From Escherichia coli (GTDB lineage: Bacteria > Pseudomonadota > Gammaproteobacteria > Enterobacterales > Enterobacteriaceae), in assembly GCF_044647545.1 (NCBI RefSeq), contig NZ_CP172818.1: a stretch of 64,000 nucleotides of DNA, one strand, 5' to 3'. This document shows positions 11,980 to 32,206 of the stretch, in pieces. The notes beneath the pieces were generated by a model. It was not told the origin of the DNA and made no database searches. It saw nothing but the letters and a program-made list of their open reading frames with translations. Both the position numbers and the translations under genes were made by a program. Each line of letters opens with the position of its first letter. The first letter of the stretch is position 1.

Positions 11980-11991
11980 GTCTGAAAACAA

Positions 11992-14283: not shown

Positions 14284-14485
14284 AACCTCGTCAGATGTTG
14301 TGTTCTTGTTAGCAACCGCGCTCTGTGGGCGGTTTAGTCAGGTTCACATTATGAGTACTGATGCAAAGAAATCCTGCACCTCAGAGTTATTTGGCAGGTG
14401 TGCCCACTTTTTCATACAGTGGGTGCCCTGAAAATCAATGTACACATCATGCATAATGTGACAACGTCACAAAAGTTAGTGAAAT

Positions 14486-14516
14486 GAAAAAGGGCAACTG
14501 TTCGGGCCGTTGCCCT
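14486..14516 (-). terminator. intrinsic terminator downstream of paaZ
   Basis: GGGCAAC..GTTGCCC hairpin followed on the minus strand by a T5 run. Confidence 0.6.
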
Positions 14517-14527
14517 TCATTCACCGA

Positions 14528-16563
14528 TTAATCGACAAAATCACCATATCCTGGCCACCAGCGTCAGAATTGAATACAGCGCCACCGGGGTTTGATGCTG
14601 ATTGAATACCTCTACCGCCCATTCCACCACCTGTTGGTTTTTCTTCTGCGCTACGCTGTTTTTTCAGCGTCTTGCGCTTACAGGTGAGACGCACCTGGAT
14701 GGTATCGCCTGGCTTTACGGGTTCGATAAGCGCAAGTTTTCCAGCCCATAATTAGCAATGACCGGACCGACACCGGCATCGACAAACAGACCCGCAGAGC
14801 CGCAGAAAAAGCACAAAATACCCATGCACCACACGCTCACCGAAAATAGATTCGGCAGCAGCAGAATATTATCCATATGCGCATAGAAATAATCGCCGCT
14901 GAGGCAAGCAAAGTTAACAATATCGGCCTCTGTCATTGTGCGGCGGGAGTGGCAGGTATCCGCCTGGTTGTAGCTCCTCAAAATATTTGCGGAACGGATG
15001 AATACGATCTTCTTCGACTTTCGCACCACGCACCCACTGTTTACTGATAGCTGCAAGCATCGTCGGACTACCCTGAACAGCGGTTCGCTGCGTGTGATCC
15101 TTCACCCGCTCGTAAACCACCTAATTCTTCACCGCCTCCTGCGCGACCAGGCCCACCATGTAACAGTTGTGGCAGTCGGAGAGCCATGCCGGTGGATTCT
15201 TTTGCCGATTCCTCATTGAGGATCTGAATTCGCCCATGCGTACGTGCCGCGTCGGTAATAAACTGACGCGCAATTTGCGGATCAGCCGTCACCAGCGTTC
15301 CGCAAGGCTACCGCCGCCTGCACAAGCCAGTTGCAGAGCATGTCGCTGGTTTTGTGCTGGCATCAGCGTTGCGACAGGGCCAAAGGCTTCTGTTGCATGT
15401 ACCGCCGGTGTTTCATCCGGCTGCGGACAGTACAATAAGGTTGGCGGGAAAGAGCACCCGCAGCAGATAAATCCGCCTGACCACCGAGGCGAATCTCGCA
15501 TCCTGCAGCCAGCAATATGTTCACTTTTTCCTGCACATCGGCACGCTGCTCAGCATTTACCAGTGCGCCCATATTCACGCCTTCCTGAGCAGGATCACCG
15601 ACCACGACTTTCTGTAATCGCGCAACCAGGACGATTCACTGACAGCATTAACCAATGCCTGCGGCGCGATAATCCGCCGGATTGCCGTACATTTTTGCCC
15701 GGCTTTTGTGGTCATCTCACGCACAACTTCACGAATAAACAGCGCAAACTCCGAGTTAAATGCGGGTAACATCTTCGCCCAGTACGCAGCAGTTCAGGGA
15801 ATCAGCTTCCATAGTGAAGGGGATAGATTTGGCGACGATATTTGGCTGAACTCGCGGCGTCTCTGCAGGTCGCCGCTGACCCGTGAAAGTCACCACATCC
15901 TGGCTGTCCAGATAATCCAAAAGGTCGCCCGCACTACCGCAGATCAGACTAATTGCGCCTTCGGGAACAAGACCACTATCGACAATTGATTTCACCATCG
16001 CCTGAGTACGTTGGGCCGTCGCGGTAGCTGGTTTGATGATGGCTGGCATTCCGCCCAGCCACGTTGGTGCCAGCTTCCGGCGTTTTGCCACAGGGGAAGT
16101 TAAAGGCGTTAATATGCACTGCCACGCCTGAGCTTTGAGGTCAGTACATGGCGCGCGGCAAATCCACCTTCTTTCGATAAGGGGATCAATTCATCTTCCG
16201 GCCACAGCGTATCGTCGGCGGCTGCCCGGCTACCGAGGCTGGCGTAAGTAAATAACGTCCCAATGCCACCTTCAAATCAACCGAACTGTTGCCGCGTTGC
16301 GCCTGTTTGCGCAGAAAGACATAGAAGCGCTCTTTTTTCACTCAGCAGATGTTTAGCGACCGCTTTAAGCATCGCCGCACGTTCGATAAAGGTCATCACG
16401 CAGAAGCAGCCTTTTCAATGGCAAACTGCAACGGGCCACCGCCATATAGACCTTTCACTGGTCACTTCCCATAACGCCTCGCCGCTGATAGCGTGGTGAA
16501 TCAAACGGCTACCACCCCGCCAGACTGCCAGGTACCGGATAAGAAACTGGCTAACTGCTGCAT
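14528..16563 (-). pseudogene. paaZ: bifunctional oxepin-CoA hydrolase / aldehyde dehydrogenase, multiply frameshifted
   Basis: ATG intact at 16561-16563 and stop ...GDFVD* at 14528-14530, but interior split into fragments (15756-16091, 15575-15772, 15363-15605, 15068-15292, 14715-15056) that each match PaaZ segments; span 2036 nt versus 2046 expected (681 aa). Confidence 0.75.
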
Positions 16564-16792
16564 CGCTACTCTCCAGATGTTTCACATTTATGTTGCTAAT
16601 AGTTAAATTGCGAATCATAAAAAGCAAGGGTTCTTTTAACGAAATGTTAACTATGCAAATATGTATCACAACTGCGGAAAACATTAATGCACTGATAAAT
16701 AATGATTTATAAAAAATCGGGTGCGAAATCCGTCACAGTTCAAGCATACAAAATTTGTGATTTTAGTTAACCATTGTGTAACTTTCATAAAC

Positions 16793-16834
16793 AATGTGAT
16801 TCGTGTTTTTAATTAATTCGCGAACTTGGAATCG
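16793..16834. promoter_or_regulatory. PaaX-type operator half-site in the paaZ-paaA divergent promoter region
   Basis: AATGTGATTCGTGTT at 16793-16807 fits the PaaX box consensus WWTRTGATTCGYGWT as I remember it; an imperfect inverted partner GAATCG lies 26 nt downstream. Confidence 0.45.
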
Positions 16835-16847
16835 TAAAGGTAATAAC

Positions 16848-17773
16848 ATAACCCAAGAAGAACGCTTTGAGCAACGGATAGCCCAGGAAACGGCTATCGA
16901 GCCGCAGGACTGGATGCCAATAAGAAAGCACTGATCCGCCAGATTGGGCAGCATGCACACTGCAAATTGTGGTATGTTCCTGAAGGTAACTGGATCACTG
17001 GCGCACGACCTTTTGCAGCATAAAGCCATTCTGTTCGCCAAAGTCCAGGATGAAGCCGGTCATCGTCTGTATCTCTATAGCGCCGCCGAAACACTGGGCT
17101 GCACAGAGAAGACATCTACCAAAAAATGCTCAAACAACGATAAATATTCCTCCATCTTTAATTATCCGACATTGGTCTCCAGGGGCTGATATCGGCGTTA
17201 TCGGCTGGCTGGTGGAGTAGCAGCGATCGTCAATCAGGTGGCGTTATGTCGCACTTCTTATGGCCCGTATGCCAGAGCAATGGTGAAGATCTGCAAAGAA
17301 GAGAGTTTTTCACCAGCGTCAGGGGTTTGAAGCCTGCATGGCACTGGCGCAGGCGGCGAAGGACGCTCAAAAGCAGATGTTGCAAGACGCCATTAACCGT
17401 TTCTGGTGGCCAGCCTTAATGATGTTCGGGCCAAACGATGATAACTCGCCAAACAGCGCCAGAAGTACCGCCTGGAAAATCAAACGTTTCACCAACGACG
17501 AACTCGCCAGCGTTTCGTGGATAACACCATTCCACAGGTTGAAATGCTCGGTATGACCGTTCCTGACCCGGATCTGCATTTTGACACTGAAAGCGGTCAC
17601 TACCGCTTTGGTGGAAATCAACTGGCAGGAGTTTAACGAAGTAATTAACGGTCGCCGGAATTTGTAATCAGGAGAGGCTCGACGCCAAACGTAAAGCCTG
17701 GGAAGAAGGTACCTGGGTACGGGAAGCAGCGCTGGCCCATGCACAAAAACAACTTGCCCGTAAGGTCGCATAA
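16848..17773 (+). pseudogene. paaA: ring 1,2-phenylacetyl-CoA epoxidase subunit A, start codon lost and frameshifted
   Basis: Conserved N-terminus reads I-TQEERFEQRIAQETAIEPQDW with ATA in place of ATG at 16848-16850; later pieces (e.g. 17338-17556 MALAQAAKDAQKQMLQDAINRFWWPALMMFGPNDDNSPNSARS) in other frames; stop at 17771-17773. Expected 309 aa. Confidence 0.75.
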
Positions 17774-17784
17774 GGAGATTCAAA

Positions 17785-18069
17785 ATGAGTAATGTTTATT
17801 GGCCGTTATACGAAGTTTACCCGTTCGTGGCAAACAGGGCTTATCACACCGCCATGTTGGCAGTTTTTACATGCTGCCGATGAGCGGATGGCACTGAAAA
17901 TGCCGGTGATTGTTACACCGTCGTAGCGAAGGATGTTCAATTTGGGTGGTGAAGGCGAGTGAAATTGTTGCCTCGCAACCGGAAGAACGCGGTGAATTTT
18001 TTGATCCGGCTGAAGCAAGGTCTATCGCCATCCAACGTTTTACACCATCCCTGATGGCATTCAACATGA
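17785..18069 (+). pseudogene. paaB: epoxidase subunit B, frameshifted
   Basis: ATG at 17785 with MSNVYWPLYEV N-terminus; body recovered in a shifted frame (17910-18149 ...SEGCSIWVVKASEIVASQPEERGEFFDPAE...). Expected 95 aa; 3' end approximate. Confidence 0.65.
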
Positions 18070-18077
18070 GGTCGGAA

Positions 18078-18820
18078 ATGAATCAGTTAACGGCTTACAC
18101 CTTCGCCTGGGCGATAACTGCCTGGTGCTTCCAGCGGTTGGGTGAATAGTGCGGTCATGCACCGGAACTGGAAATCGATCTCGCACTGGCAAATATTGGA
18201 CTCGATTTATTAGGCCAGGCACGCAACTTCTTATCGTATGCCGCTGAATTAGCGGGAGAAGGCGATGAAGATACCCTGGCCTTCACCCCAACAAGCACCA
18301 GTTCAGCAACTTATTGTTGGTTGAACAGCCAAACGGCAATTTTGCCGACAACCGTCGCCAGTATTTCATCGATGCATGGCATGTGGCGCTCTTTACCATT
18401 CTGATGGAGAGCCGTGATCCGCGACTGGCGGCGATTTCTGCAAAGCGATTAAAGAAGCGCGTTATAGCCTGCGTTTTATTCGTGGCTGGCTGGAGCAACT
18501 GGGCAATGGTACTGACGTATACGGGCGAAAGAATGCCAGCAGGCCATCAACAAGTTGTGGCGTTTTACCGCCGAACTGTAGATGCCGACGAGATTGATAT
18601 TGCACTGAGTGAAGAGGGTATTGCGGTTGATCCACGCGCTTTTACGCGCAGCGTGGGAAGCCGAAGTTTTTGCCGGGATCAACGAAGCCACATTCAACGT
18701 ACCGCAGAGCAGGCGTATCGCACTGGCGGTAAAAAAGGACTGCATACCGAACACCTTGGACCCATGCTGGCAGAAATGCAGTTATTGTTTGAGCGTGTCT
18801 TGCCCGGTCAGCAATGGTAA
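18078..18820 (+). pseudogene. paaC: epoxidase subunit C, frameshifted
   Basis: Start MNQLTAYT at 18078; C-terminal portion in ORF 18314-18820 ends ...LPGQQW*; span 743 nt, not a multiple of 3, versus 747 expected (248 aa). Confidence 0.7.
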
Positions 18821-18834
18821 CAGAGGAGGTGGGT

Positions 18835-19325
18835 ATGCAACGTATCAGCCACCATTCCGCCGCCACAGGTTCATCCAGATATGGGCGCTACTGGGCGCGA
18901 TCCCGGACCGGAGATCCCGGTGCTGACCATTACCGATTTAGGCATGGTGCGTAATGTGACACAGATGGAAAGAATGGGTGATCGGCTTTACGCCGACTTA
19001 TTCCGGTTGTCCGGCAACGGAACGTTGATTGGCGCGATACGTGAGGCAATGACAACCCACGGGTTTACCCGTACGGTTGTGCTGCAACTCGACCCGGCAT
19101 GGACCACCGACTGGATGACCCCCGATGCCCGTGAGCGTCTGCGACGGTATGGCATTAGCCCGCCCGGCCGGAACAGTTGCCGGCCCATTTGCCGCCAGAA
19201 GTACGTTGCCCGCGCTGCGCCAGCGTCCATCCACACTTATCAGTGAATTTGGTTCCACGGCCTGCAAAGCATTGTACCGCTGCGATAGTTGCCACAAACC
19301 TTTCGATTATTTCAAATGTATTTGA
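18835..19325 (+). pseudogene. paaD: epoxidase subunit D, frameshifted
   Basis: ATG at 18835; fragments 18881-19246 (IPVLTITDLGMVRNVTQM...) and 19125-19325 (...CDSCHKPFDYFKCI*) in different frames. Confidence 0.7.
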
Positions 19326-19332
19326 GGATGCC

Positions 19333-20397
19333 ATGACAACGTTTCATTCCTTAACAGTGGCAAAAGTGGGCCCGGAAACCCGTGATGCGGTGACCATTAC
19401 CTTTGCATGCAGCCTTTGCAGGAGGCGTATCACTTTCGCCCCGGTCAACATTTGACCTTAAAAGCCAGTCTTGATGGTGAAGAATTAGCCATTGTTCTCC
19501 ATTTGCCGCAGCTACCTGCCTGGCGAAATTAGTGTGGCGGTGAAAGCCATTGAAGGCGGACGTTTCTCCCGCTATGCCCGCGAACACATCCGCCAGGGTA
19601 TGACGCTGGAGGTCATGGTGCCGCAGGGGCATTTCGGCTATCAGCCACAGGCCGAACACCAGGGCCGCTATCTGGCTATTGCAGCAGGATCAGGTATTAC
19701 GCCAATGCTGGCGATTATCGCCACCACTTTCAAACCGAGCCTGAAAGTCAGTTCACCCTGATCTACGGTAACCGTACCAGCCAGAGCATGATGTTTCGCC
19801 AGGCACTGGCAGACCTGAAAGACAAATATCCTCAGCGTTTACAGTTGTTGTGCATTTTCAGTCAGGAAACCCTCGACAGCGATCTGCTTCACGGGCGTAT
19901 TGACGGTGAAAAATTACGTGGCTTGGGGCCTCGCTCATTGATTTTTCGTCTTTATGATGAGGCGTTTGCTTTGTGGTCCGGCGGCGATGATGGATGAGAC
20001 GGAAGCCGCCTTAAAAGCACTGGGAATGCCAGATAAAACCATTCATCTGGAGCGGTTTAATACGCCTGGCACGCGCGTCAAAGCGTCGCGTTAACGTGCA
20101 AAGTGACGGACAAAAGTGACTGTACGTCAGGATCGGCGGGATCGGGAAATCGTGCTTAATGCCGACGATGAAAGCATTCTCGATGCGGCATTGCGCCAGG
20201 GGGCTGATCTGCCCTATGCCTGCAAAGGCGGCGTCTGTGCGACCTGCAAATGCAAAGTGCTGCGTGGCGAAGTGGCGATGGAAACCAATTACAGTCTGGA
20301 ACCGGATGAACTGGCCGCAGGTTATGTGTTGAGTTGCCAGGCACTGCCGCTGACCAGCGATGTGGTGGTTGACTTTGACGCGAAGGGGATGGCATCA
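19333..20397 (+). pseudogene. paaE: epoxidase reductase subunit E (ferredoxin-NADPH reductase), frameshifted and stop codon lost
   Basis: Start MTTFHSLTVAK at 19333; fragments 19492-19761 and 20116-20406 (2Fe-2S motif CKGGVCATCKCK) in different frames; the expected overlapping TGA stop reads TCA at 20395-20397. Confidence 0.7.
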
Positions 20398-21172
20398 GCG
20401 AACTGATCGTCAGCCGTCAGCAACAGGTGCTTGCTGCTGACCCTTAACCGTCCCGCCGCACGTAATGCGCTGAGAATAATGCCCTTCTGACGCAACTGGT
20501 AAATGAACTGGAAGCTGCGGCTACCGATAGCAGCATTTCGGTCTGTGTGATTACCGGTAATGCACGCTTTTTTGCCGCTGGGGCCGATCTCAACGAAATG
20601 GCAGAAAAAGATCTCGCGGCCACCTTAAACGATACACGTCCGCAGCTATGGGCGCGATTGCAGGCCTTTAATAAACCACTTATCGCAGCCGTCAATGGTT
20701 ACGCGCTTGGGGCGGGTTGCGAACTGGCATTGTTGTGCGATGTGGTGGTTGCCGGAGAGAACGCGCGTTTTGCGTTGCTTTTTACAGGAAATCACTCTCG
20801 GCATCATGCCAGGCGCAGGAGGAACGCAACGTTTAATCCGTAGTGTCGGTAAATCGTTAGCCAGCAAAAATGGTGCTGAGCGGAGAAAGTATCACCGCTC
20901 AGCAAGCACAGCAGGCCGGGCTGGTTAGCAACATCTTCCCCAGCGATTTAACCCTCGAATACGCCTTACAGCTGGCATCGAAAATGGCACGTCACTCGCC
21001 GCTGGCCTTACAAGCGGCAAAGCAAGCGCTGCGCCAGTCGCAGGAAGTGGCTTTGCAAGCCGGACTTGCCCAGGAGCGACAGTTATTCACCTTGCTGGCG
21101 GCAACAGAAGATCGTCATGAAGGCATCTCCGCTTTCTTACAAAAACGCACGCCCGACTTTAAAGGACGCTAA
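20394..21172 (+). pseudogene. paaF: 2,3-dehydroadipyl-CoA hydratase (enoyl-CoA hydratase), start codon lost and frameshifted in the 5' two-thirds
   Basis: N-terminus reads I-SELIVSRQQ with ATC in place of ATG at 20394-20396; frame breaks near 20775 and 20850; last 100 codons (20870-21172) intact, ending ...RTPDFKGR*. Expected 255 aa. Confidence 0.75.
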
Positions 21173-21960
21173 TGATGGAATTCATCCTCAGTCATGTAGA
21201 AAAGGGCGTGATGACACTAACGCTCAACCGCCCGGAACGCCTGAACAGTTTTAATGATGAGATGCACGCACAACTGGCAGAGTGCCTGAAACAGGTCGAG
21301 CGCGACGACACTATCCGTTGCCTGTTACTTACAGGTGCCGGGCGCGGATTTTGTGCTGGTCAGGATCTTAACGATCGTAACGTTGATCCCACAGGCCCCG
21401 CACCGGATTTAGGGATGTCAGTTGAACGTTTCTATAACCCACTGGTACGTCGCCTGGCAAAACTGCCAAAACCGGTGATCTGTGCAGTCAATGGCGTGGC
21501 GGCAGGGGCAGGCGCAACACTGGCACTGGGGGGCGACATCGTTATTGCTGCCCGTTCAGCAAAATTCGTCATGGCGTTTAGTAAGTTAGGCTTAATACCC
21601 GATTGCGGTGGAACCTGGTTACTGCCACGCGTTGCCGGACGAGCGCGCGCCATGGGGCTGGCACTGCTGGGGAATCAACTGAGTGCTGAACAGGCGCACG
21701 AATGGGGGATGATCTGGCAGGTTGTTGATGATGAAACGCTGGCAGATACCGCGCAACAGCTGGCACGGCATCTGGCGACACAACCGACATTTGGTCTTGG
21801 ACTTATCAAGCAAGCGATAAATAGCGCTGAAACCAATACGCTCGATACGCAACTGGATCTGGAACGTGACTATCAGCGACTTGCCGGACGGAGCGCAGAT
21901 TATCGTGAAGGTGTCAGTGCGTTCCTGGCTAAACGCTCACCGCAGTTCACGGGGAAATAG
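21172..21960 (+). CDS. paaG: 1,2-epoxyphenylacetyl-CoA isomerase (crotonase fold), 262 aa
   Basis: Intact 262-aa ORF MMEFILSHVEKGVMTLTLNRP...; start overlaps paaF stop by 1 bp. Confidence 0.9.
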   Translation: MMEFILSHVEKGVMTLTLNRPERLNSFNDEMHAQLAECLKQVERDDTIRCLLLTGAGRGFCAGQDLNDRNVDPTGPAPDLGMSVERFYNPLVRRLAKLPKPVICAVNGVAAGAGATLALGGDIVIAARSAKFVMAFSKLGLIPDCGGTWLLPRVAGRARAMGLALLGNQLSAEQAHEWGMIWQVVDDETLADTAQQLARHLATQPTFGLGLIKQAINSAETNTLDTQLDLERDYQRLAGRSADYREGVSAFLAKRSPQFTGK

Positions 21961-21961
21961 C

Positions 21962-23389
21962 ATGATGATAAATGTGCAAACTGTGGCAGTGATTGGGAGC
22001 GGCACCATGGGGGCAGGCATTGCTGAAGTTGCTGCCAGTCATGGACACCAGGTTTTACTGTATGACATTTCTGCTGAAGCGCTGACCCGCGCAATCGACG
22101 GGATACACGCGCGGCTAAATTCACGCGTGACGCGGGGAAAACTGACTGCTGAAACCTGTGAACGCACATTGAAACGCCTGATCCCGGTGACCGATATTCA
22201 CGCGCTGGCAGCTGCGGACCTGGTCATTGAAGCGGCGTCTGAACGTCTGGAAGTCAAAAAAGCGCTCTTTGCACAGCTGGCGGAAGTTTGCCCGCCACAA
22301 ACGCTATTGACCACTAACACTTCGTCAATCTCTATAACCGCGATTGCTGCGGAGATAAAAAATCCTGAACGTGTTGCGGGGCTGCATTTTTTTAACCCGG
22401 CACCGGTGATGAAGTTGGTGGAGGTGGTCAGTGGGCTGGCAACGGCGGCGGAAGTTGTTGAGCAGTTGTGTGAACTAACGTTGAGTTGGGGTAAGCAGCC
22501 TGTGCGCTGTCATTCGACTCCTGGATTTATCGTTAACCGTGTTGCGCGTCCTTATTATTCCGAGGCCTGGCGGGCACTGGAAGAGCAGGTTGCTGCACCA
22601 GAAGTGATTGACGCTGCACTTCGCGATGGCGCTGGTTTCCCGATGGGGCCGCTGGAATTAACCGATCTGATTGGTCAGGACGTCAATTTTGCTGTCACCT
22701 GTTCGGTGTTTAACGCTTTCTGGCAGGAGCGTCGTTTTTTACCTTCGCTGGTGCAACAGGAACTGGTGATTGGTGGACGGTTGGGCAAGAAAAGTGGGCT
22801 GGGCGTGTACGACTGGCGCGCGGAACGTGAGGCAGTTGTTGGCCTGGAAGCGGTAAGCGACAGTTTTAGCCCAATGAAAGTAGAAAAGAAAAGTGACGGT
22901 GTCACGGAAATTGACGATGTTTTATTGATTGAGACACAAGGCGAGACGGCACAGGCGCTGGCAATACGACTGGCACGCCCGGTGGTAGTGATCGATAAAA
23001 TGGCGGGCAAGGTGGTGACCATTGCTGCTGCAGCGGTGAACCCGGACTCAGCGACCCGCAAGGCCATTTATTACCTGCAACAGCAGGGCAAAACAGTGCT
23101 GCAAATTGCAGATTACCCAGGAATGCTGATTTGGCGAACGGTAGCAATGATCATCAATGAAGCCCTTGATGCGCTTCAAAAAGGCGTGGCCTCTGAACAG
23201 GATATCGATACCGCCATGCGTCTTGGGGTGAATTATCCATATGGCCCACTTGCCTGGGGAGCGCAACTTGGCTGGCAGCGAATATTAAGGCTCCTTGAAA
23301 ATCTACAGCATCACTATGGCGAAGAACGCTATCGCCCATGTTCATTGCTGCGCCAACGGGCGCTTCTGGAGAGCGGTTATGAGTCATAA
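21962..23389 (+). CDS. paaH: 3-hydroxyadipyl-CoA dehydrogenase, 475 aa
   Basis: ORF 21866-23389 trimmed to MMINVQTVAVIGSGTMGAGIA (Rossmann motif) directly after the paaG stop; 475 aa. Confidence 0.9.
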   Translation: MMINVQTVAVIGSGTMGAGIAEVAASHGHQVLLYDISAEALTRAIDGIHARLNSRVTRGKLTAETCERTLKRLIPVTDIHALAAADLVIEAASERLEVKKALFAQLAEVCPPQTLLTTNTSSISITAIAAEIKNPERVAGLHFFNPAPVMKLVEVVSGLATAAEVVEQLCELTLSWGKQPVRCHSTPGFIVNRVARPYYSEAWRALEEQVAAPEVIDAALRDGAGFPMGPLELTDLIGQDVNFAVTCSVFNAFWQERRFLPSLVQQELVIGGRLGKKSGLGVYDWRAEREAVVGLEAVSDSFSPMKVEKKSDGVTEIDDVLLIETQGETAQALAIRLARPVVVIDKMAGKVVTIAAAAVNPDSATRKAIYYLQQQGKTVLQIADYPGMLIWRTVAMIINEALDALQKGVASEQDIDTAMRLGVNYPYGPLAWGAQLGWQRILRLLENLQHHYGEERYRPCSLLRQRALLESGYES

Positions 23390-23801
23390 GGCCTGGCAAA
23401 ATGCCCATGCAATGTATGAGAACGATGCCTGCGCCAAAGCGCTTGGCATCGACATTATCTCAATGGATGAAGGCTTTGCTGTAGTGACCATGACCGTCAC
23501 TGCACAAATGCTTAACGGTCATCAAAGTTGCCACGGCGGGCAGCTATTTTCACTGGCTGATACTGCCTTTGCCTACGCCTGCAATAGCCAGGGGCTGGCA
23601 GCCGTCGCTTCTGCCTGCACGATTGATTTTTTGCGTCCAGGCTTTGCCGGAGACACCTTAACTGCTACTGCGCAGGTACGTCATCAGGGCAAGCAAACCG
23701 GTGTTTACGACATCGAAATTGTTAACCAACAACAAAAAACGGTTGCGCTGTTTCGCGGTAAATCTCACCGCATCGGCGGCACCATTACAGGAGAAGCCTG
23801 A
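23379..23801 (+). CDS. paaI: hotdog-fold acyl-CoA thioesterase, 140 aa
   Basis: ORF 23295-23801 trimmed to MSHKAWQNAHAMYEND; 140 aa. Confidence 0.85.
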   Translation: MSHKAWQNAHAMYENDACAKALGIDIISMDEGFAVVTMTVTAQMLNGHQSCHGGQLFSLADTAFAYACNSQGLAAVASACTIDFLRPGFAGDTLTATAQVRHQGKQTGVYDIEIVNQQQKTVALFRGKSHRIGGTITGEA

Positions 23802-25006
23802 TGCGTGAAGCCTTTATTTGTGACGGAATTCGTACGCCAATTGGTCGCTACGGCGGGGCATTATCAAGTGTTCGGGCTGATGATCTGGCTGCTATCCCTT
23901 TGCGGGAACTGCTGGTGCGAAACCCGCGTCTCGATGCGGAGTGTATCGATGATGTGATCCTCGGCTGTGCTAATCAGGCGGGAGAAGATAACCGTAACGT
24001 AGCCCGGATGGCGACTTTACTGGCGGGGCTGCCGCAGAGTGTTTCCGGCACAACCATTAACCGCTTGTGTGGTTCCGGGCTGGACGCACTGGGGTTTGCC
24101 GCACGGGCGATTAAAGCGGGCGATGGCGATTTGCTGATCGCCGGTGGCGTGGAGTCAATGTCACGGGCACCGTTTGTTATGGGCAAGGCAGCCAGTGCAT
24201 TTTCTCGTCAGGCTGAGATGTTCGATACCACTATTGGCTGGCGATTTGTGAACCCGCTCATGGCTCAGCAATTTGGAACTGACAGCATGCCGGAAACGGC
24301 AGAGAATGTAGCTGAACTGTTAAAAATCTCACGAGAAGATCAAGATAGTTTTGCGCTACGCAGTCAGCAACGTACGGCAAAAGCGCAATCCTCAGGCATT
24401 CTGGCTGAGGAGATTGTTCCGGTTGTGTTGAAAAACAAGAAAGGTGTTGTAACAGAAATACAACATGATGAGCATCTGCGCCCGGAAACGACGCTGGAAC
24501 AGTTACGTGGGTTAAAAGCACCATTTCGTGCCAATGGGGTGATTACCGCAGGCAATGCTTCCGGGGTGAATGACGGAGCCGCTGCGTTGATTATTGCCAG
24601 TGAACAGATGGCAGCAGCGCAAGGACTGACACCGCGGGCGCGTATCGTAGCCATGGCAACCGCCGGGGTGGAACCGCGCCTGATGGGGCTTGGTCCGGTG
24701 CCTGCAACTCGCCGGGTGCTGGAACGCGCAGGGCTGAGTATTCACGATATGGACGTGATTGAACTGAACGAAGCGTTCGCGGCCCAGGCGTTGGGTGTAC
24801 TACGCGAATTGGGGCTGCCTGATGATGCCCCACATGTTAACCCCAACGGAGGCGCTATCGCCTTAGGCCATCCGTTGGGAATGAGTGGTGCCCGCCTGGC
24901 ACTGGCTGCCAGCCATGAGCTGCATCGGCGTAACGGTCGTTACGCATTGTGCACCATGTGCATCGGTGTCGGTCAGGGCATCGCCATGATTCTGGAGCGT
25001 GTTTGA
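23801..25006 (+). CDS. paaJ: 3-oxoadipyl-CoA / 3-oxo-5,6-dehydrosuberyl-CoA thiolase, 401 aa
   Basis: Intact 401-aa thiolase ORF ([19 protein letters not shown]...CIGVGQG). Confidence 0.9.
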
Positions 25007-25032
25007 GCATATCAACCTGCGAGTACCCTACA

Positions 25033-26346
25033 ATGATAACCAATACAAAGCTTGACCCGATTGAAACCGCGTCTGTTGATGAGTTACAGGCGTTGCAAAC
25101 ACAGCGTCTGAAATGGACGCTCAAACACGCGTATGAAAATGTGCCGATGTATCGGCGCAAATTCGACGCAGCAGGCGTACATCCTGATGATTTCAGGGAA
25201 CTTTCAGACCTGCGTAAATTTCCCTGTACCACCAAACAGGATCTGCGCGACAACTATCCCTTTGACACCTTTGCCGTGCCAATGGAACAAGTGGTGCGCA
25301 TTCATGCTTCTTCGGGAACCACAGGTAAACCGACAGTTGTCGGCTATACGCAAAACGATATTGATAACTGGGCCAATATTGTAGCGCGTTCTTTGCGTGC
25401 GGCAGGGGGCTCGCCCAAAGACAAAATTCATGTTGCCTATGGTTACGGCCTGTTTACTGGTGGGCTGGGTGCGCACTATGGTGCCGAACGTCTGGGCGCT
25501 ACGGTGATCCCGATGTCTGGCGGGCAGACGGAAAAACAAGCGCAACTGATCCGTGATTTTCAACCAGATATGATCATGGTTACGCCATCTTATTGCCTTA
25601 ACCTGATTGAAGAGCTGGAGCGGCAGTTGGGCGGTGATGCCAGCGGTTGCTCGCTGCGGGTTGGAGTATTTGGTGCTGAGCCGTGGACACAGGCCATGCG
25701 TAAAGAGATTGAGCGTCGCCTGGGGATCACCGCACTGGATATTTATGGCCTGTCAGAAGTGATGGGGCCGGGGGTGGCGATGGAGTGTCTGGAAACTACC
25801 GACGGCCCAACCATTTGGGAAGATCATTTCTATCCTGAAATTGTTAATCCTCATGACGGCACACCGCTTGCCGATGGTGAACATGGCGAACTGTTATTCA
25901 CCACGCTGACCAAAGAAGCATTGCCGGTCATTCGTTACCGCACGCGTGATTTAACCCGACTGTTACCAGGAACGGCGCGGACTATGCGCCGCATGGATCG
26001 CATCAGCGGACGCAGCGATGACATGTTGATTATTCGCGGTGTAAATGTCTTTCCGTCACAACTGGAAGAAGAGATTGTCAAATTCGAACATTTATCGCCG
26101 CATTACCAACTGGAGGTGAACCGCCGGGGGCATCTTGATTCACTTTCTGTGAAAGTGGAGTTGAAAGAAAGTAGCCTGACATTGACGCATGAGCAGCGTT
26201 GCCAGGTATGCCACCAGCTGCGCCATCGGATTAAGTCGATGGTGGGGATCTCTACCGATGTGATGATCGTTAACTGTGGCAGTATCCCGCGTTCAGAAGG
26301 CAAGGCGTGTCGGGTGTTTGATCTGCGCAATATTGTTGGTGCCTGA
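25033..26346 (+). CDS. paaK: phenylacetate-CoA ligase, 437 aa
   Basis: ORF 24949-26346 trimmed to MITNTKLDPIETASVDELQALQ; adenylate-forming motif SSGTTGKPT present. Confidence 0.9.
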   Translation: MITNTKLDPIETASVDELQALQTQRLKWTLKHAYENVPMYRRKFDAAGVHPDDFRELSDLRKFPCTTKQDLRDNYPFDTFAVPMEQVVRIHASSGTTGKPTVVGYTQNDIDNWANIVARSLRAAGGSPKDKIHVAYGYGLFTGGLGAHYGAERLGATVIPMSGGQTEKQAQLIRDFQPDMIMVTPSYCLNLIEELERQLGGDASGCSLRVGVFGAEPWTQAMRKEIERRLGITALDIYGLSEVMGPGVAMECLETTDGPTIWEDHFYPEIVNPHDGTPLADGEHGELLFTTLTKEALPVIRYRTRDLTRLLPGTARTMRRMDRISGRSDDMLIIRGVNVFPSQLEEEIVKFEHLSPHYQLEVNRRGHLDSLSVKVELKESSLTLTHEQRCQVCHQLRHRIKSMVGISTDVMIVNCGSIPRSEGKACRVFDLRNIVGA

Positions 26347-26446
26347 CGTATCGTCTGGCCCTGGTGGGGTAAAGCGCCAGGGCCAGAAGTCGATACGACC
26401 TGTGCTATGATTCATAAATCACAACAATAACAACAGACTGAAGCGA

Positions 26447-27397
26447 ATGAGTAAACTTGATACTTTTATCCAACATGCTGTAAACGCTGTTCCGGTCAGT
26501 GGCACATCTTTGATCTCCTCTCTGTATGGTGATTCGCTTTCCCATCGTGGTGGTGAAATCTGGTTGGGTAGTCTGGCTGCTTTGCTGGAAGGGCTGGGAT
26601 TTGGTGAGCGTTTCGTGCGCACCGCTTTGTTTCGTCTTAATAAAGAAGGCTGGCTGGATGTTTCCCGCATCGGGCGACGCAGTTTCTATAGCCTCAGTGA
26701 TAAAGGCTTGCGCCTGACGCGACGGGCAGAAAGTAAAATTTATCGCGCAGAGCAACCTGCATGGGATGGTAAATGGCTCCTGTTGCTCTCGGAAGGTTTA
26801 GATAAATCAACGCTGGCTGATGTCAAAAAGCAGTTGATCTGGCAAGGTTTTGGCGCACTGGCACCCAGCCTGATGGCATCGCCGTCGCAAAAACTGGCCG
26901 ATGTACAGACACTTTTGCATGAAGCGGGTGTGGCGGATAACGTGATTTGTTTTGAAGCGCAAATACCACTGGCGCTTTCTCGCGCAGCACTGCGTGCCAG
27001 AGTAGAAGAGTGCTGGCATTTAACTGAACAAAATGCCATGTACGAAACCTTTATTCAGTCATTCCGCCCGCTGGTGCCGCTTTTAAAAGAGGCGGCAGAC
27101 GAGTTAACCCCGGAGCGGGCATTTCATATTCAGCTTTTACTGATCCATTTTTATCGCCGTGTCGTCCTTAAAGACCCATTGTTGCCGGAGGAGTTGCTTC
27201 CGGCACACTGGGCAGGGCATACGGCGCGTCAGCTGTGTATCAACATTTATCAGCGCGTAGCGCCTGCTGCTTTAGCGTTCGTTAGTGAAAAAGGTGAAAC
27301 CTCGGTCGGTGAATTGCCTGCGCCGGGAAGCCTGTATTTTCAACGTTTTGGCGGCTTGAATATTGAACAGGAGGCGTTATGCCAATTTATCAGATAG
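26447..27397 (+). CDS. paaX: phenylacetyl-CoA-responsive transcriptional repressor of the paa operon, 316 aa
   Basis: Intact 316-aa ORF; preceded by a TGATTC motif at 26407. Confidence 0.9.
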
Positions 27398-28038
27398 ACG
27401 GTCTGACTCCGGTTGTGCCAGAAGAGAGTTTTGTCCATCCGACAGCGGTATTGATCGGCGATGTTATTCTCGGCAAGGGCGTTTACGTTGGGCCAAATGC
27501 CAGCCTGCGTGGCGATTTTGGTCGTATCGTGGTGAAAGATAGCGCGAACATTCAGGATAATTGCGTTATGCACGGTTTTCCCGAGCAGGATACTGTCGTG
27601 GAAGAAGATGGACATATTGGTCATAGCGCTATCCTTCACGGCTGCATTATCCGCCGCAATGCATTAGTGGGAATGAACGCGGTAGTGATAGACGGTGCGG
27701 TGATTGGCGAGAACAGCATTGTTGGCGCATCCGCATTTGTGAAAGCCAAAGCAGAAATGCCAGCTAATTACCTGATTGTCGGCAGCCCGGCGAAAGCGAT
27801 TCGTGAACTCAGTGAGCAGGAGTTGGCATGGAAAAAGCAGGGTACGCATGAGTACCAGGTGCTGGTGACACGCTGTAAGCAGACGTTACATCAAGTCGAG
27901 CCATTGCGGGAAGTTGAACCTGGAGGCAGCGCCTGGTATTTGATGAGAATCTGCGACGAAACAGTAACAGATGTAAAATTATTTTGTCCCTTTAATTATA
28001 AAGCAGAGTTATGTTTAAGCTCTGCTTTATTTATTTGA
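27379..28038 (+). CDS. paaY: hexapeptide-repeat (gamma-carbonic-anhydrase-like) thioesterase PaaY, probably frameshifted near the 3' end
   Basis: ORF of 219 aa overlapping the paaX stop by 19 bp; expected 196 aa. The last ~30 codons read through a terminator hairpin, and an out-of-frame TAA at 27965-27967 sits where the native stop should be if two single-base deletions near 27925-27960 are restored. Confidence 0.7.
28001..28037 (+). terminator. intrinsic terminator after paaY
   Basis: AAGCAGAG (28001-28008) and CTCTGCTT (28020-28027) stem with 11-nt loop followed by a T-rich tail. Confidence 0.6.
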
Positions 28039-28297
28039 GTATTAATTCATACCGTTTTTTCATCATATAATTATTTATAATGAGAATGTGGTTTTAATTT
28101 GTAATTTATATTATATACACAATTTATATATTTCATGGTCTTTTTTTATTCACCTGAATTATAATTGTGAATTATAGGAAAGTATGTTTGATTAGATAAT
28201 AATCTACTGGCAATATTGGATGTCTTCTATGTTTTAAATAACTAATTGGTCGGGTTAGTGCATCCGGCTTTCTTTATATTCGCCAGAAGGATTTATT

Positions 28298-30820
28298 ATG
28301 CAAAGGAAAACTCTATTGTCGGCCTGTATTGCATTAGCTCTGAGTGGTCAGGGTTGGGCGGCAGATATCACAGAGGTAGAAACCACCACAGGTGAAAAGA
28401 AAAATACCAATGTGACTTGTCCGGCAGACCCAGGAAAACTCAGTCCGGAAGAGCTTAAACGCTTACCCTCTGAATGCTCTCCTTTAGTCGAACAAAACCT
28501 GATGCCATGGCTTTCCACAGGCGCTGCTGCGTTAATCACGGCCTTAGCCGTAGTGGAACTAAACGACGATGATGATCATCATCATCGCAACAATTCTCCA
28601 CTCCCACCGACACCCCCTGATGATGAATCAGACGACACTCCAGTTCCCCCAACTCCTGGCGGAGATGAGATAATACCGGACGATCCGGATGATACGCCTA
28701 CACCTCCCAAACCGGTTTCGTTTAATAATGACGTTATTCTCGATAAAACAGAAAAAACGTTAACTATTCGCGATTCAGTTTTTACTTATACCGAGAATGC
28801 TGACGGGACTATATCTCTGCAAGATAGCAATGGTCGTAAGGCAACGATTAATCTTTGGCAGATTGATGAAGCGAATAACACTGTTGCCCTTGAAGGGGTG
28901 AGCGCAGATGGCGCAACGAAGTGGCAATATAATCACAACGGTGAGCTTGTTATTACGGGTGATAATGCCACAGTAAACAACAATGGCAAAACCACCGTTG
29001 ACGGTAAAGATTCCACCGGTACGGAAATCAACGGTAATAACGGGAAAGTGATTCAGGACGGCGATCTGGATGTCAGCGGCGGCGGTCACGGTATTGATAT
29101 CACCGGTGACAGCGCGACGGTGGATAACAAGGGCACCATGACCGTCACCGATCCGGAGTCCATGGGTATCCAGATCGACGGTGACAAGGCCATCGTCAAT
29201 AACGAAGGCGAGAGCACCATCACCAACGGTGGCACCGGCACCCAGATTAATGGTGATGACGCCACGGCAAACAACAACGGCAAAACCACCGTTGACGGCA
29301 AGGATTCCACCGGTACGGAAATCAACGGTAATAACGGAAAAGTTATTCAGGACGGCGATCTGGATGTCAGCGGCGGCGGTCACGGTATTGATATCACCGG
29401 CGACAGCGCAACGGTGGATAACAAGGGCACCATGACCGTCACCGATCCGGAGTCCATCGGTATCCAGGTTGACGGCGACCAGGCGGTTGTTAACAACGAA
29501 GGCGAGAGCGCCATCACCAACGGTGGCACCGGCACGCAGATTAACGGTGATGACGCCACGGCAAACAACAACGGCAAAACCACCGTTGACGGCAAGGATT
29601 CCACCGGTACGGAAATTGCTGGCAATAACGGGAAGGTGATTCAGGACGGCGATCTGGATGTCAGCGGCGGCGGTCACGGTATTGATATCACCGGCGACAG
29701 CGCAACGGTGGATAACAAGGGCACCATGACCGTCACCGATCCGGAGTCCATCGGTATCCAGATTGACGGCGACCAGGCCATCGTCAATAACGAAGGCGAG
29801 AGCACTATCACCAATGGCGGCACCGGCACTCAGATCAACGGTAACGACGCCACCGCGAATAACAGTGGAAAAACCACTGTTGATGGAAAAGATTCCACGG
29901 GTACCAAAATCGCGGGCAATATCGGCATTGTAAATCTGGATGGTAGCCTGACTGTTACAGGCGGTGCGCATGGTGTTGAGAACATTGGTGACAACGGCAC
30001 GGTTAACAACAAAGGAGATATTGTTGTTTCCGATACTGGATCGATTGGCGTGCTCATCAACGGTGAGGGGGCAACAGTATCCAATACGGGTGATGTTAAC
30101 GTTAGCAATGAAGCGACAGGGTTCAGCATCACAACCAACAGTGGGAAGGTTTCGCTGGCAGGCAGTATGCAGGTTGGCGATTTCTCGACCGGGGTAGATC
30201 TTAATGGCAACAATAACAGCGTGACGCTGGCGGCAAAAGATCTAAAAGTGGTCGGGCAGAAAGCGACGGGCATAAACGTTTCTGGCGATGCGAATACAGT
30301 GAATATCACTGGTAACGTTCTGGTTGATAAGGATAAAACCGCAGACAATGCGGCGGAATATTTCTTCGATCCATCCGTGGGTATCAACGTTTACGGCAGT
30401 GATAATAACGTGACGCTGGATGGAAAGTTAACTGTTGTATCAGACAGTGAGGTTACTTCTCGTCAGAGTAATTTATTTGATGGCAGCGCAGAGAAAACGT
30501 CAGGTCTGGTTGTGATTGGCGATGGCAATACCGTTAATATGAATGGTGGACTTGAACTGATTGGAGAGAAAAACGCGCTTGCAGATGGGTCGCAGGTTAC
30601 TTCCTTGCGCACAGGATATAGTTATACCAGCGTTATTGTCGTTAGTGGTGAGTCGTCGGTATATCTGAATGGAGATACGACAATCAGCGGAGAATTCCCT
30701 CTGGGGTTTGCCGGGGTTATTCGGGTACAGGATAAAGCTTTGCTGGAAATTGGCAGTGGCGCTACGCTAACAATGCAGGATATTGACAGTTTTGAACATC
30801 TGGTGACAGTAGTACCCAGG
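28298..30820 (+). pseudogene. ydbA: autotransporter adhesin, N-terminal (signal peptide plus passenger) fragment truncated by IS2
   Basis: ORF begins MQRKTLLSACIALALSGQGWA (signal peptide), followed by a Pro/Asp-rich linker and G/T/N/D-rich beta-helix-type repeats; reading frame runs straight into the IS2 terminal inverted repeat at 30821. Confidence 0.85.
28967..29990 (+). repeat. tandem 294-bp (98-aa) coding repeats, about 3.4 copies, in the ydbA passenger domain
   Basis: Unit ATxNNNGKTTVDGKDSTGTEI.GNNGKVIQDGDLDVSGGGHGIDITGDSATVDNKGTMTVTDPES.GIQ.DGD.A.VNNEGES.ITNGGTGTQINGxD starts at about 28967, 29261, 29555 and 29848; copies 2 and 3 are about 94% identical at protein level. Confidence 0.85.
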
Positions 30821-30831
30821 TGGATTTGCCC

Positions 30832-31737
30832 CTATATTTCCAGACATCTGTTATCACTTAACCCATTACAAGCCCGCTGCCGCAGATATTCCCGTGGCGA
30901 GCGATAACCCAGCGCACTATGCGGATGCCATTCGTTATAATGCTCGAACGCCTCTGCAAGGTTCTTTGCTGCCGTTAACCCGTCTGGTTTGGGCATGATA
31001 CTGATGTAGTCACGCTTTATCGTTTTCACGAAGCTCTCTGCTATTCCGTTACTCTCCGGACTCCGCACCGCCGTGTTCTTCGGTTCAAGTCCCAACATCC
31101 GGGCGAACTGGCGTGTTTCATTAGCCCGGTAGCATGAACCATTATCCGTCAGCCACTCCACTGGAGACGACGGAAGATCGTTGCCGAAGCGGCGTTCCAC
31201 CGCTCCCAGCATGACGTCCTGTACTGTTTCACTGTTGAAGCCGCCGGTAGTGACCGCCCAGTGCAGTGCCTCACGATCACAGCAGTCCAGCGCGAACGTG
31301 ACACGCAGTCTCTCTCCGTTATCACAGCAGAACTCGAACCCGTCAGAGCACCATCGCTGATTGCTTTCTTTCACGGCCACTCTGCCTGTATGTGCCCGTT
31401 TCGATGGCGGTACAGCAGGTTTTCGCTCAAGCAACAGCGCATTCTGGCGCATGATCCGGTAAACACGTTTGGCATTGATCGCAGGCATACCATCAAGTTC
31501 TGCCTGTCTGCGAAGCAGCGCCCATACCCGACGATAACCATACGTTGGCAGCTCTCCGATAACATGGTGTATACGGAGAAGCACATCCGTATCATCAGTG
31601 TGACGACTGCGGCGGCCATCCATCCAGTCATCGGTTCGTCTGAGAATGACGTGCAACTGCGCACGCGACACCCGGAGACAACGGCTGACTAAGCTTACTC
31701 CCCATCCCCGGGCAATAAGGGCGCGTGCGCTATCCAC
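30832..31737 (-). CDS. insD: IS2 transposase OrfB (InsD), 301 aa
   Basis: 301-aa ORF with DDE integrase-core motifs; overlaps insC as expected for the programmed -1 frameshift fusion. Confidence 0.9.
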
Positions 31738-32060
31738 TTTTTTGCCCGTCCATATTCAACGGCTTCTTTGAGGAGTTCATTTTCCATCGTTTTCTTGCCG
31801 AGCAGGCGCTGGAGTTCTTTAATCTGCTTCATGGCGGCAGCAAGTTCAGAGGCAGGAACAACCTGTTCTCCGGCGGCGACAGCAGTAAGACTTCCTTCCT
31901 GGTATTGCTTACGCCAGAGAAATAACTGGCTGGCTGCTACACCATGTTGCCGGGCAACGAGGGAGACCGTCATCCCCGGTTCAAAGCTCTGCTGAACAAT
32001 TGCGATCTTTTCCTGTGTGGTACGCCGTCTGCGTTTCTCCGGCCCTAAGACATCAATCAT
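31695..32060 (-). CDS. insC: IS2 OrfA (InsC) HTH protein, 121 aa
   Basis: ORF 31695-32105 trimmed to [24 protein letters not shown]. Confidence 0.85.
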
Positions 32061-32206
32061 CTGTTCTCCAATGACTAGTCTAAAAACTAGTATTAAGACT
32101 ATCACTTATTTAAGTGATATTGGTTGTCTGGAGATTCAGGGGGCCAGTCTAAACCCCAGAACTTACTTATGCTGATTCCGGTGCGAAAATTGTTAATAAA
32201 GGTACT

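What the first reader, a model, noticed from the sequence alone, without database searches (positions are those of the whole stretch)
30816..32206. IS2 lacks an obvious 5-bp target-site duplication, whereas neighbouring IS30 has a clean 2-bp CT duplication
The 5 bp left of IS2 (CCAGG) do not match the 5 bp to its right (AACCC), whereas IS30 is flanked by CT on both sides. The absence of an IS2 duplication suggests an IS2-mediated adjacent deletion or rearrangement after insertion, so some ydbA sequence may be missing at this junction.
Basis: seen in the sequence. Interest (0 to 1): 0.3.

Follow-up and report, generated by a model that had tools for sequence, protein, structure and literature searches.

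The report
IS2 flank swapped by assembly artefact
The IS2 copy really has no matching 5-bp repeats in this window, but only because the 20 bases on its left come from a different IS2 copy in another E. coli lineage. The window itself is a stitched K-12/ST648 composite, so this is most likely a sequence-construction artefact and not a transposon-mediated deletion.

Summary
**Observation: confirmed.**
- IS2 is window 30821-32151 (1331 bp, minus orientation), flanked by CCAGG on the left and AACCC on the right.
- IS30 is 32207-33427, with a true CT/CT duplication.

**Interpretation: mostly wrong.**
- In reference K-12 MG1655 the same IS2 (IS2D) has a perfect AACCC/AACCC duplication.
- In the window, the 15 bp ATGGGACAAGAACCC left of IS2 are replaced by 20 bp, TGGTGACAGTAGTACCCAGG (30801-30820).
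- Those 20 bp, plus the preceding C, are the exact flank of another IS2 insertion. That insertion sits in a fimA-annotated fimbrial gene of the ST648 lineage, about 126 kb away, in the same orientation, with its own clean CCAGG duplication.

**The window is a composite.**
- It is 100% ST648-type wherever ST648 has sequence.
- It is 100% K-12 exactly where ST648 carries two deletions (feaR-paaX and ydbA). All four switch points fall on the deletion endpoints.
- A 9.4-kb stretch is K-12 sequence carrying unconstrained substitutions and indels that break every ORF.

**Other evidence.** The chimeric junction was not found in 5,426 complete E. coli genomes, the GTDB representative genomes or the JGI metagenomes.

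**Best reading.** A consensus or polishing artefact pasted ST648 fim::IS2 junction sequence onto K-12's ydbA::IS2 junction. A real templated-repair event remains a minor possibility. Interest is low.

The parts
28298..30800 (+). ydbA fragment 1 (autotransporter pseudogene, N-terminal part). It is K-12-identical up to ...GAACATC and lacks the last 15 bp that K-12 has before IS2.
   Evidence: 0 differences from NC_000913.3 over 27969-30799. K-12 fragment 1 ends ...CATCATGGGACAAGAACCC.
30801..30820 (+). 20-bp foreign patch, TGGTGACAGTAGTACCCAGG, replacing the K-12 sequence ATGGGACAAGAACCC. With the preceding C it is identical to the IRR-side flank, including the CCAGG target duplication, of an IS2 inserted in a fimA-annotated fimbrial gene of ST648-lineage E. 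coli.
   Evidence: the 21-mer lies in fimA-annotated genes of 3537/5426 genomes. FDAARGOS_497 reads ...CATTACTGGTGACAGTAGTACCCAGG|IS2|CCAGGAATGC; 49 genomes carry this junction; the patch is unique in the window; it is absent from K-12 fimA.
30821..32151 (-). IS2 (IS3 family), 1331 bp, identical to K-12 IS2D. The transposase reads on the minus strand (orfA 31695-32105, orfB 30832-31737).
   Evidence: 1331/1331 identity to IS2D; annotation.
30821..30861 (-). IS2 right inverted repeat (IRR, the donor end, ...CA-3' on the minus strand), 41 bp.
   Evidence: inverted repeat I1; end lengths and roles from PMC3299598.
32110..32151 (-). IS2 left inverted repeat (IRL, the recipient end), 42 bp.
   Evidence: PMC3299598.
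32152..32156 (+). AACCC, the surviving right-hand copy of the genuine 5-bp target duplication of the K-12 ydbA::IS2D insertion.
   Evidence: K-12 reads AACCC|IS2|AACCC; intact ydbA has one AACCC.
32152..32206 (+). ydbA fragment 2 (55 bp between IS2 and IS30), K-12-identical.
32207..33427 (+). IS30 (identical to K-12 IS30C), 1221 bp, 26-nt terminal inverted repeats, flanked by a CT/CT target duplication (32205-06 and 33428-29).
33428..36924 (+). ydbA fragment 3 (C-terminal part), K-12-identical up to 36915.
9506..27241 (.). First K-12-derived fill (feaR-paaX). It occupies exactly the interval deleted in ST648 genomes. Positions 9506-11571 and 20934-27241 have 0 differences from MG1655; 11572-20933 is K-12 sequence plus noise.
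11572..20933 (.). Noisy stretch (feaB-paaF). It has 294 substitutions, 112 inserted and 124 deleted bases relative to K-12, no codon-position bias, strand-asymmetric changes, and all ORFs broken.
   Evidence: no E. coli genome exceeds 96.9% identity over 1-21000.
27969..36915 (.). Second K-12-derived fill (ydbA::IS2::IS30). It occupies exactly the second interval deleted in ST648 genomes.

Best explanation
The missing IS2 target duplication is an artefact of how this sequence was built; it is not a transposition or deletion event.

**How the window is put together.**
- The window merges two genomes.
- It carries ST648-lineage sequence wherever that lineage has DNA.
- It carries K-12 MG1655 sequence, base for base, in the two intervals that ST648 has deleted (feaR-paaX and ydbA).
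- Two build routes would give this pattern. One is a reference-guided consensus of ST648 reads on the K-12 reference. The other is an assembly or polish of a mixed ST648 + K-12 sample.

**How the junction arose (inferred).**
- ST648 genomes carry their own IS2 in a fimbrial gene about 126 kb away, in the same orientation.
- Reads or sequence spanning that junction (...CTGGTGACAGTAGTACCCAGG|IS2) were placed on the K-12 ydbA::IS2D junction.
- Of the six K-12 IS2 copies, IS2D has the flank most similar to the fim flank.
- The consensus then overwrote the 15 bp next to the IS2 IRR end, including the left AACCC repeat, with the 20-bp fim flank, including its CCAGG repeat.
- The window therefore pairs the left repeat of one insertion (CCAGG) with the right repeat of another (AACCC).

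**Shown and inferred.**
- Shown: the identity and origin of the 20 bp, the clean duplications in both parental contexts, the composite structure, and the noise.
- Inferred: the exact software step.
For: 1. K-12 MG1655 and about 366 K-12-like genomes read ...CATCATGGGACAAGAACCC|IS2|AACCCCAG, a clean 5-bp duplication. They match the window junction at only 98.0%.
2. The 21-mer CTGGTGACAGTAGTACCCAGG is an exact match to fimA-annotated genes in 3537 genomes. An exact 21-mer is not expected by chance in a roughly 5-Mb genome.
3. In 49 ST648-lineage genomes that gene is interrupted by IS2 exactly there, with a CCAGG/CCAGG duplication.
4. Eleven of the 15 genomes listed as 100% identical to window 37000-61000 are among those fim::IS2 carriers. 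In ECONIH1 the two sites are on the same strand and about 126 kb apart in window coordinates.
5. Window 1-9505 and 36916-39916 are 100% identical to MS6198, and 37000-61000 is 100% identical to MS6198. MS6198 lacks feaR-paaX and ydbA.
6. The window is 0 differences from MG1655 in 9506-11571, 20934-27241 and 27969-36915 apart from the patch. All four switches fall on the ST648 deletion endpoints.
7. Positions 11572-20933 carry 530 differences with no codon bias (for example tynA 18/18/27 by codon position, against hrpA 11/2/117). There are 236 indel columns and all ORFs are broken. paaY has two 1-base deletions absent from both parents. The window therefore contains technical errors.
8. The ydbA 15-mer and the fim 20-mer share an ordered 13/15 bases (P about 0.004 against shuffles). 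IS2D has the best-scoring flank among the six K-12 IS2 copies.
9. The chimeric junction is absent from 5,426 E. coli genomes, the GTDB representatives and the JGI metagenomes. The chimeric ORF product is not on record.
Against: - No reads are available, so the artefact is inferred from sequence patterns only.
- The right IS2 flank was not overwritten, although the fim right flank is also moderately similar to it (LCS 12/20).
- The window's IS2 keeps the K-12 bases at the two positions where fim::IS2 differs (726 and 1300 from the IRR end). Any ST648 contribution was therefore confined to the junction and at most 725 bp of IS2.
- Standard short-read aligners would usually soft-clip such a flank instead of forcing it, so a particular polisher, local-reassembly step or long-read consensus has to be assumed.
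Confidence: 0.82

Rival explanations
1. This is a real templated repair event in a genuine ST648/K-12 hybrid chromosome.
- A break just left of ydbA::IS2 was repaired using the fim::IS2 copy as template.
- Invasion occurred within IS2 homology.
- Synthesis ran 20-21 nt out into the fim flank.
- The new strand then rejoined ydbA at a 1-nt (C) or patchy microhomology, as in synthesis-dependent strand annealing with template switching.
- The result was a loss of 15 bp and a gain of 20 bp.
For: - The patch is exactly the flank of another IS2 copy of the backbone lineage, in the same orientation.
- The change is one-sided, as expected for a break on one side.
- The first 725 bp of IS2 from the IRR end are identical in the two copies, so a short conversion tract would leave no other trace.
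- The patchy similarity of the two flanks could aid re-annealing.
Against: - It needs a cell holding both K-12 ydbA::IS2 and ST648 fim::IS2. ST648 genomes lack ydbA and K-12 lacks that fim allele.
- The hybrid pattern switches at all four deletion endpoints, which homologous recombination would not do.
- The same window carries obvious non-biological noise.
- The junction is seen nowhere else.
Confidence: 0.08
2. IS2 inserted with a normal duplication, and a later IS2-mediated adjacent deletion or rearrangement (intramolecular transposition) removed ydbA sequence and one repeat copy.
For: No duplication is present in the window, and 10 unique ydbA bp are missing relative to intact orthologues. 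K-12 does hold one natural IS2 without a duplication (IS2H: TTTAT against AACTT), so such events occur.
Against: An adjacent deletion joins the IS end directly to more distant host DNA and adds nothing. Here, 20 foreign bp that match another locus's IS2 flank sit between IS2 and ydbA, and ydbA resumes only 15 bp away. The ancestral K-12 state has an intact duplication.
Confidence: 0.03
3. An aberrant transposition moved IS2 together with 20 bp of its fim flank, using a pseudo-end outside IRR, from the fimbrial gene into ydbA.
For: The IS2-plus-flank unit is contiguous in the ST648 fim locus.
Against: - The IRL-side junction, the AACCC repeat, the neighbouring IS30 and the IS2 sequence variants (T at 726, T at 1300) are all those of the pre-existing K-12 IS2D, not of fim::IS2.
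- A second insertion landing at the identical nucleotide is implausible.
- The target shows a 10-bp loss instead of a duplication.
Confidence: 0.01

Closest known systems
K-12 MG1655 ydbA::IS2D / IS30C (b4492, NC_000913.3 1467910-1469240 and 1469296-1470516)
   Same: Same gene, same insertion nucleotide on the IRL side, same orientation, IS2 1331/1331 identical, same IS30 with a CT duplication, and ydbA fragments identical.
   Different: K-12 has the AACCC/AACCC duplication. The window has 20 foreign bp in place of the last 15 bp of fragment 1.
ST648-lineage fimbrial gene::IS2 insertion (e.g. FDAARGOS_497 NZ_CP033850.1 ~4046310; ECONIH1; strain ST648)
   Same: The 21 nt abutting the IS2 IRR end are identical, including the CCAGG repeat, and the orientation relative to the window backbone is the same.
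   Different: There the flank continues as the fimbrial gene and the other side carries CCAGG. That IS2 differs at 2 of 1331 positions.
IS-mediated adjacent deletion (e.g. K-12 IS2H in the ygeO-ygeP region, no duplication)
   Same: An IS2 copy without matching 5-bp repeats.
   Different: No foreign patch is expected in an adjacent deletion. Here the loss is 15 bp with a 20-bp gain of another copy's flank.
Reference-bias or mis-polishing artefacts at repeat boundaries in reference-guided or mixed-sample assemblies
   Same: Reference sequence is retained where the sample has none, switches fall at deletion endpoints, and a few bases next to a multi-copy repeat are overwritten by another copy's flank.
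   Different: The software and reads are unknown. The 9.4-kb indel-rich stretch needs an additional cause, such as low-coverage long reads or mismapped reads.

Membership tests
IS2 (IS3 family insertion sequence) | Length of 1331 bp with imperfect terminal inverted repeats of 41 bp (IRR) and 42 bp (IRL). | tested here: met
   30821-32151 is 1331 bp. One search finds the inverted repeat. It is identical to annotated IS2D. End lengths are from PMC3299598.
IS2 (IS3 family insertion sequence) | Two overlapping transposase frames (orfA/orfB) joined by a programmed frameshift. | tested here: met
   ORFs at 31695-32105 (-) and 30832-31737 (-). RefSeq annotates the identical sequence as 'IS3-like element IS2 family transposase, programmed frameshift'.
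IS2 (IS3 family insertion sequence) | 5-bp direct target duplication flanking the element. | tested here: not met
   The window has CCAGG against AACCC. The same insertion in K-12 has AACCC/AACCC, and five of six K-12 IS2 copies have clean 5-bp repeats. The failure is a property of this window's left flank, not of the element.
IS30 | Length of 1221 bp, 26-nt terminal inverted repeats, one transposase ORF and a 2-bp target duplication. | tested here: met
   32207-33427; inverted repeat I2; ORF 32269-33420 of 383 aa; CT/CT flanks with a single CT in the empty site.
IS-mediated adjacent deletion | The IS end is joined directly to host DNA that was formerly distant. Intervening DNA is lost and no foreign DNA is added. 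| tested here: not met
   Only 15 bp are lost, 20 bp from another IS2 copy's flank are added, and ydbA is otherwise contiguous.
Composite / reference-guided consensus artefact | The sequence switches between two parental genomes exactly at the indel endpoints of one parent, and is base-identical to the other parent inside those intervals. | tested here: met
   The switches are at 9505/9506, 27241/27242, 27968/27969 and 36915/36916. There are 0 differences from MG1655 inside the fills and 100% identity to MS6198 outside them.
Composite / reference-guided consensus artefact | Non-biological error signature nearby. | tested here: met
   Positions 11572-20933 show no codon-position bias, 236 indel columns, strand-asymmetric substitutions and all ORFs broken. 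paaY has 1-base deletions absent from both parents.
Composite / reference-guided consensus artefact | Read-level evidence: a coverage drop or clipped and multi-mapping reads at the junction. | not testable with these tools
   No reads and no source accession are available. Exact-product look-ups found no public record.

The most novel reading that the evidence does not exclude
The junction is real. In a genuine ST648/K-12 hybrid chromosome, a break beside ydbA::IS2 was repaired off a second IS2 copy 126 kb away. The repair copied 20 nt of that copy's unique flank before the strand returned. This would be a natural footprint of inter-IS synthesis-dependent repair that erases a target-site duplication without any transposase action.
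Probability: 0.07. Interest if true: 0.35.

Novelty: not a real feature. Interest (0 to 1): 0.08.

Why it matters
There are two practical lessons.

- **For IS annotation.** A missing target-site duplication is routinely read as evidence of IS-mediated deletion or recombination. This case shows that the signal can be produced by sequence construction, when another repeat copy's flank is pasted at a repeat boundary. It is resolved at once by comparing with the empty site and with other copies of the element.
- **For this window.** The window should not be treated as a natural contiguous chromosome. Other anomalies found in 9506-36915, such as broken paa/tynA/feaB genes and the frameshifted paaY, are likely to be artefacts too.

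If the junction were real, it would be a modest curiosity about repair between IS copies.

Tried and rejected
1. **Re-placing the IS2 ends.** The ends are unambiguous (1331/1331 identity to IS2D) and no 5-bp repeat appears at any nearby offset.
2. **CCCAG near both sides.** I noticed CCCAG at 30815-19 and 32155-59 and considered a displaced duplication with extra bases. This was rejected once K-12 and intact ydbA showed that the true target repeat is AACCC.
3. **Origin of the 20-mer inside the window.** It is unique even with 3 mismatches allowed.
4. **An allelic ydbA variant.** Rejected because intact ydbA genes are otherwise near-identical and read ATGGGACAAG there, and because the patch shifts the frame (+10 nt).
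5. **A natural divergent strain.** Rejected by the codon-position and indel analysis and by the exact coincidence of the switches with the ST648 deletion endpoints.
6. **Finding the source record.** I tried exact products of two window-specific ORFs and the chimeric junction in the GTDB representatives and JGI metagenomes. Nothing was found.
7. **Simple IS2 x IS2 homologous recombination.** Rejected because only 21 nt of the fim flank are present, not the whole fim side.
Full report
**1. The observation**

Reading the sequence and the inverted-repeat scan places the two elements as follows.
- IS2 lies at 30821-32151 (1331 bp).
  - The transposase is on the minus strand.
  - The IRR end, TGGATTTGCCCC..., is at 30821.
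  - The IRL end, ...GGGGGCCAGTCTA, is at 32151.
- IS30 lies at 32207-33427 (1221 bp).

The element is 1331/1331 identical to annotated K-12 IS2D, so the ends are not in doubt. The flanking pentamers are CCAGG (30816-20) and AACCC (32152-56), which do not form a duplication.

IS30 is flanked by CT on both sides. The uninterrupted gene has a single CT at that point, so the IS30 duplication is genuine.

**2. What the empty site and the reference say**

A reconstructed empty site was searched against 5,426 complete E. coli genomes. Many uninterrupted ydbA genes were found. E. coli C and M217 read:

...TTTTGAACATC ATGGGACAAG AACCC CAGAACTTAC...

K-12 MG1655 reads:

...CATCATGGGACAAG AACCC | IS2 | AACCC CAGAAC...

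That is a textbook 5-bp duplication. The roughly 366 genomes that carry this junction match the window at only 98.0%.

The window reads:

...CATC TGGTGACAGTAGTACCCAGG | IS2 | AACCC CAGAAC...

Fifteen bp (ATGGGACAAGAACCC, which includes the left repeat) have been replaced by 20 bp. The IRL side, the 55-bp ydbA fragment 2, IS30 and the rest of ydbA are identical to K-12.

**3. Where the 20 bp come from**

- The 20-mer is unique in the window.
- Against the E. coli collection, the 21-mer CTGGTGACAGTAGTACCCAGG is an exact match inside fimA-annotated fimbrial genes of 3,537 genomes. It does not match K-12 fimA.
- In strain FDAARGOS_497 the match extends into IS2.
  - That gene is itself interrupted by IS2 at exactly this point and in the same end orientation.
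  - It reads ...CATTACTGGTGACAGTAGTACCCAGG | IS2 | CCAGGAATGC, with a clean CCAGG duplication.
- Forty-nine genomes share this insertion, including strain ST648, ECONIH1 and others.

The window's left flank is therefore the left flank of a different IS2 insertion. The unmatched pentamers are one half each of two perfectly normal duplications.

**4. What the window is**

Aligned to MG1655, the window is only 97.6% identical, with 214 gap openings. The differences are sharply partitioned.

| Window interval | Relation to parental genomes |
|---|---|
| 1-9505 | 100% identical to ST648-lineage MS6198 |
| 36916-39916 | 100% identical to MS6198 |
| 37000-61000 | 100% identical to MS6198, ECONIH1 and others |
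| 9506-11571 | 0 differences from MG1655 |
| 11572-20933 | K-12 sequence plus noise |
| 20934-27241 | 0 differences from MG1655 |
| 27242-27968 | paaX'-paaY island retained by ST648; carries the ST648 alleles |
| 27969-36915 | 0 differences from MG1655, apart from the 20-bp patch |

- The ST648-type segments differ from K-12 by 22-28 differences per kb. These have a strong third-codon-position bias and no indels in the genes examined.
- ST648-lineage genomes lack feaR-paaX and ydbA entirely.
- All four switches between parental types coincide with the ST648 deletion endpoints.
- Homologous recombination in a natural hybrid would not place every crossover on those endpoints. An alignment-based merge would: ST648 data laid on a K-12 reference, or a polished mixed sample.

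**5. Technical noise in the same window**

- Positions 11572-20933 (feaB-paaF) are K-12 sequence with 294 substitutions, 112 inserted and 124 deleted bases.
- The substitutions show no codon-position bias and are strand-asymmetric (G>A 69 against C>T 24; A>C 29 against T>G 3).
- Every ORF in that stretch is broken.
- No E. coli genome matches 1-21000 above 96.9%.
- paaY carries two single-C deletions that neither parent has.

The window thus demonstrably contains non-biological errors within a few kb of the junction.

**6. Mechanism**

*Shown:*
- the composite structure of the window;
- the origin of the patch;
- the fim::IS2 copy belongs to the same lineage as the backbone. Eleven of the 15 best backbone matches carry it, and in ECONIH1 it is on the same strand about 126 kb from the ydbA position.

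*Inferred:* during consensus building or polishing, sequence from the ST648 fim::IS2 junction was laid on the K-12 ydbA::IS2D junction and overwrote the bases next to the repeat boundary.

*Two observations make this plausible:*
- The ydbA 15-mer and the fim 20-mer share 13 of 15 bases in order (P about 0.004 against shuffles). The change can therefore be written as a few small indels plus one substitution, which is how BLAST aligns it.
- Among the six K-12 IS2 copies, IS2D has the IRR-side flank that aligns best to the fim flank. It is thus the natural landing place for such reads.

*Against this reading:*
- The right flank was not overwritten.
- The two IS2-internal variants of fim::IS2 (positions 726 and 1300) were not transferred.
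- Ordinary short-read aligners would normally clip such a flank instead of forcing it.

**7. Rivals**

- **Real templated repair.** This would be synthesis-dependent strand annealing primed inside IS2 on the fim::IS2 copy, running 20 nt into its flank and then returning.
  - It would give the same junction and is not excluded by the sequence alone.
  - It requires a true hybrid cell.
  - It conflicts with the endpoint-coincident mosaic and does not explain the noise.
It fails because foreign DNA was gained and the ancestral insertion has an intact duplication.
- **Transposition of IS2 plus 20 bp from the fim locus.** It fails because everything except the 20 bp is K-12 IS2D: the IRL junction, the AACCC repeat, the IS30 neighbour and both IS2 variants.

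**8. Comparison with the known, and novelty**

The IS2 pathway is described in PMC3299598. IRR acts as the donor end, a one-base-pair minicircle spacer is used, and symmetrical attack on the target gives direct repeats.

Nothing at this site departs from it. Both parental insertions obey the 5-bp rule, as do five of the six K-12 copies. The element is an ordinary IS2 and an ordinary IS30 in the well-known K-12 ydbA pseudogene.

The chimeric junction occurs nowhere else that I could search. The finding is best filed as not a real feature.

**9. Verdict**

| Item | Verdict |
|---|---|
| Observation | Confirmed |
| Interpretation | Partly supported: sequence is missing, but not through IS2-mediated deletion |
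| Most likely cause | Composite or consensus artefact (about 0.8) |
| Interest | Low |

Noticed in passing
window 11572-20933: feaB, tynA, paaZ and paaA-F are K-12 sequence riddled with 294 substitutions and 236 indel columns. There is no codon-position bias, the changes are strand-asymmetric (mostly to or from A on the + strand), and every ORF is broken. This looks like uncorrected read error or mismapped-read consensus, not pseudogene decay.
   Followed up: yes
window 9505/9506, 27241/27242, 27968/27969, 36915/36916: The window switches between 100% ST648-type and 100% K-12 MG1655-type sequence exactly at the endpoints of two deletions carried by ST648-lineage genomes (feaR-paaX and ydbA). 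The whole window is therefore a composite of two genomes.
   Followed up: yes
window 27245, 27923, 27957 (paaX'-paaY island): One extra A and two single-C deletions relative to MS6198. The two C deletions are also absent from K-12. They frameshift the end of paaY, giving an ORF of 219 aa instead of 196 aa.
   Followed up: partly
L012 (NC_000913.3 2996361-2997691, IS2H): K-12's own IS2H has no target duplication (TTTAT against AACTT), whereas IS2A, D, F, I and K all have clean 5-bp repeats.
   Followed up: no
window 28952-29925: ydbA fragment 1 contains internal tandem repeats with an offset of about 294 bp (about 90% identity between copies), typical of repeat-rich autotransporter passenger domains.
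   Followed up: no
L004 (VL40, NZ_CM177011.1) and H1 (UMNF18): Other strains carry independent IS insertions in ydbA. VL40 has an IS2 about 660 bp downstream of the K-12 site, and UMNF18 has an IS1. ydbA therefore seems to be hit repeatedly by insertion sequences.
   Followed up: no
window 55021-55208 (hokB/sokB region): The ST648-type backbone lacks three short blocks (9, 11 and 9 nt) that K-12 has around hokB/mokB/sokB. This is natural strain variation in a toxin-antitoxin locus.
   Followed up: no
L007 2263-4162 (FDAARGOS_497) and 49 ST648-lineage genomes: A fimA-annotated fimbrial major-subunit gene, next to chaperone and usher genes, is inactivated by IS2 with a CCAGG duplication throughout the ST648 lineage. 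It could serve as a lineage marker.
   Followed up: partly
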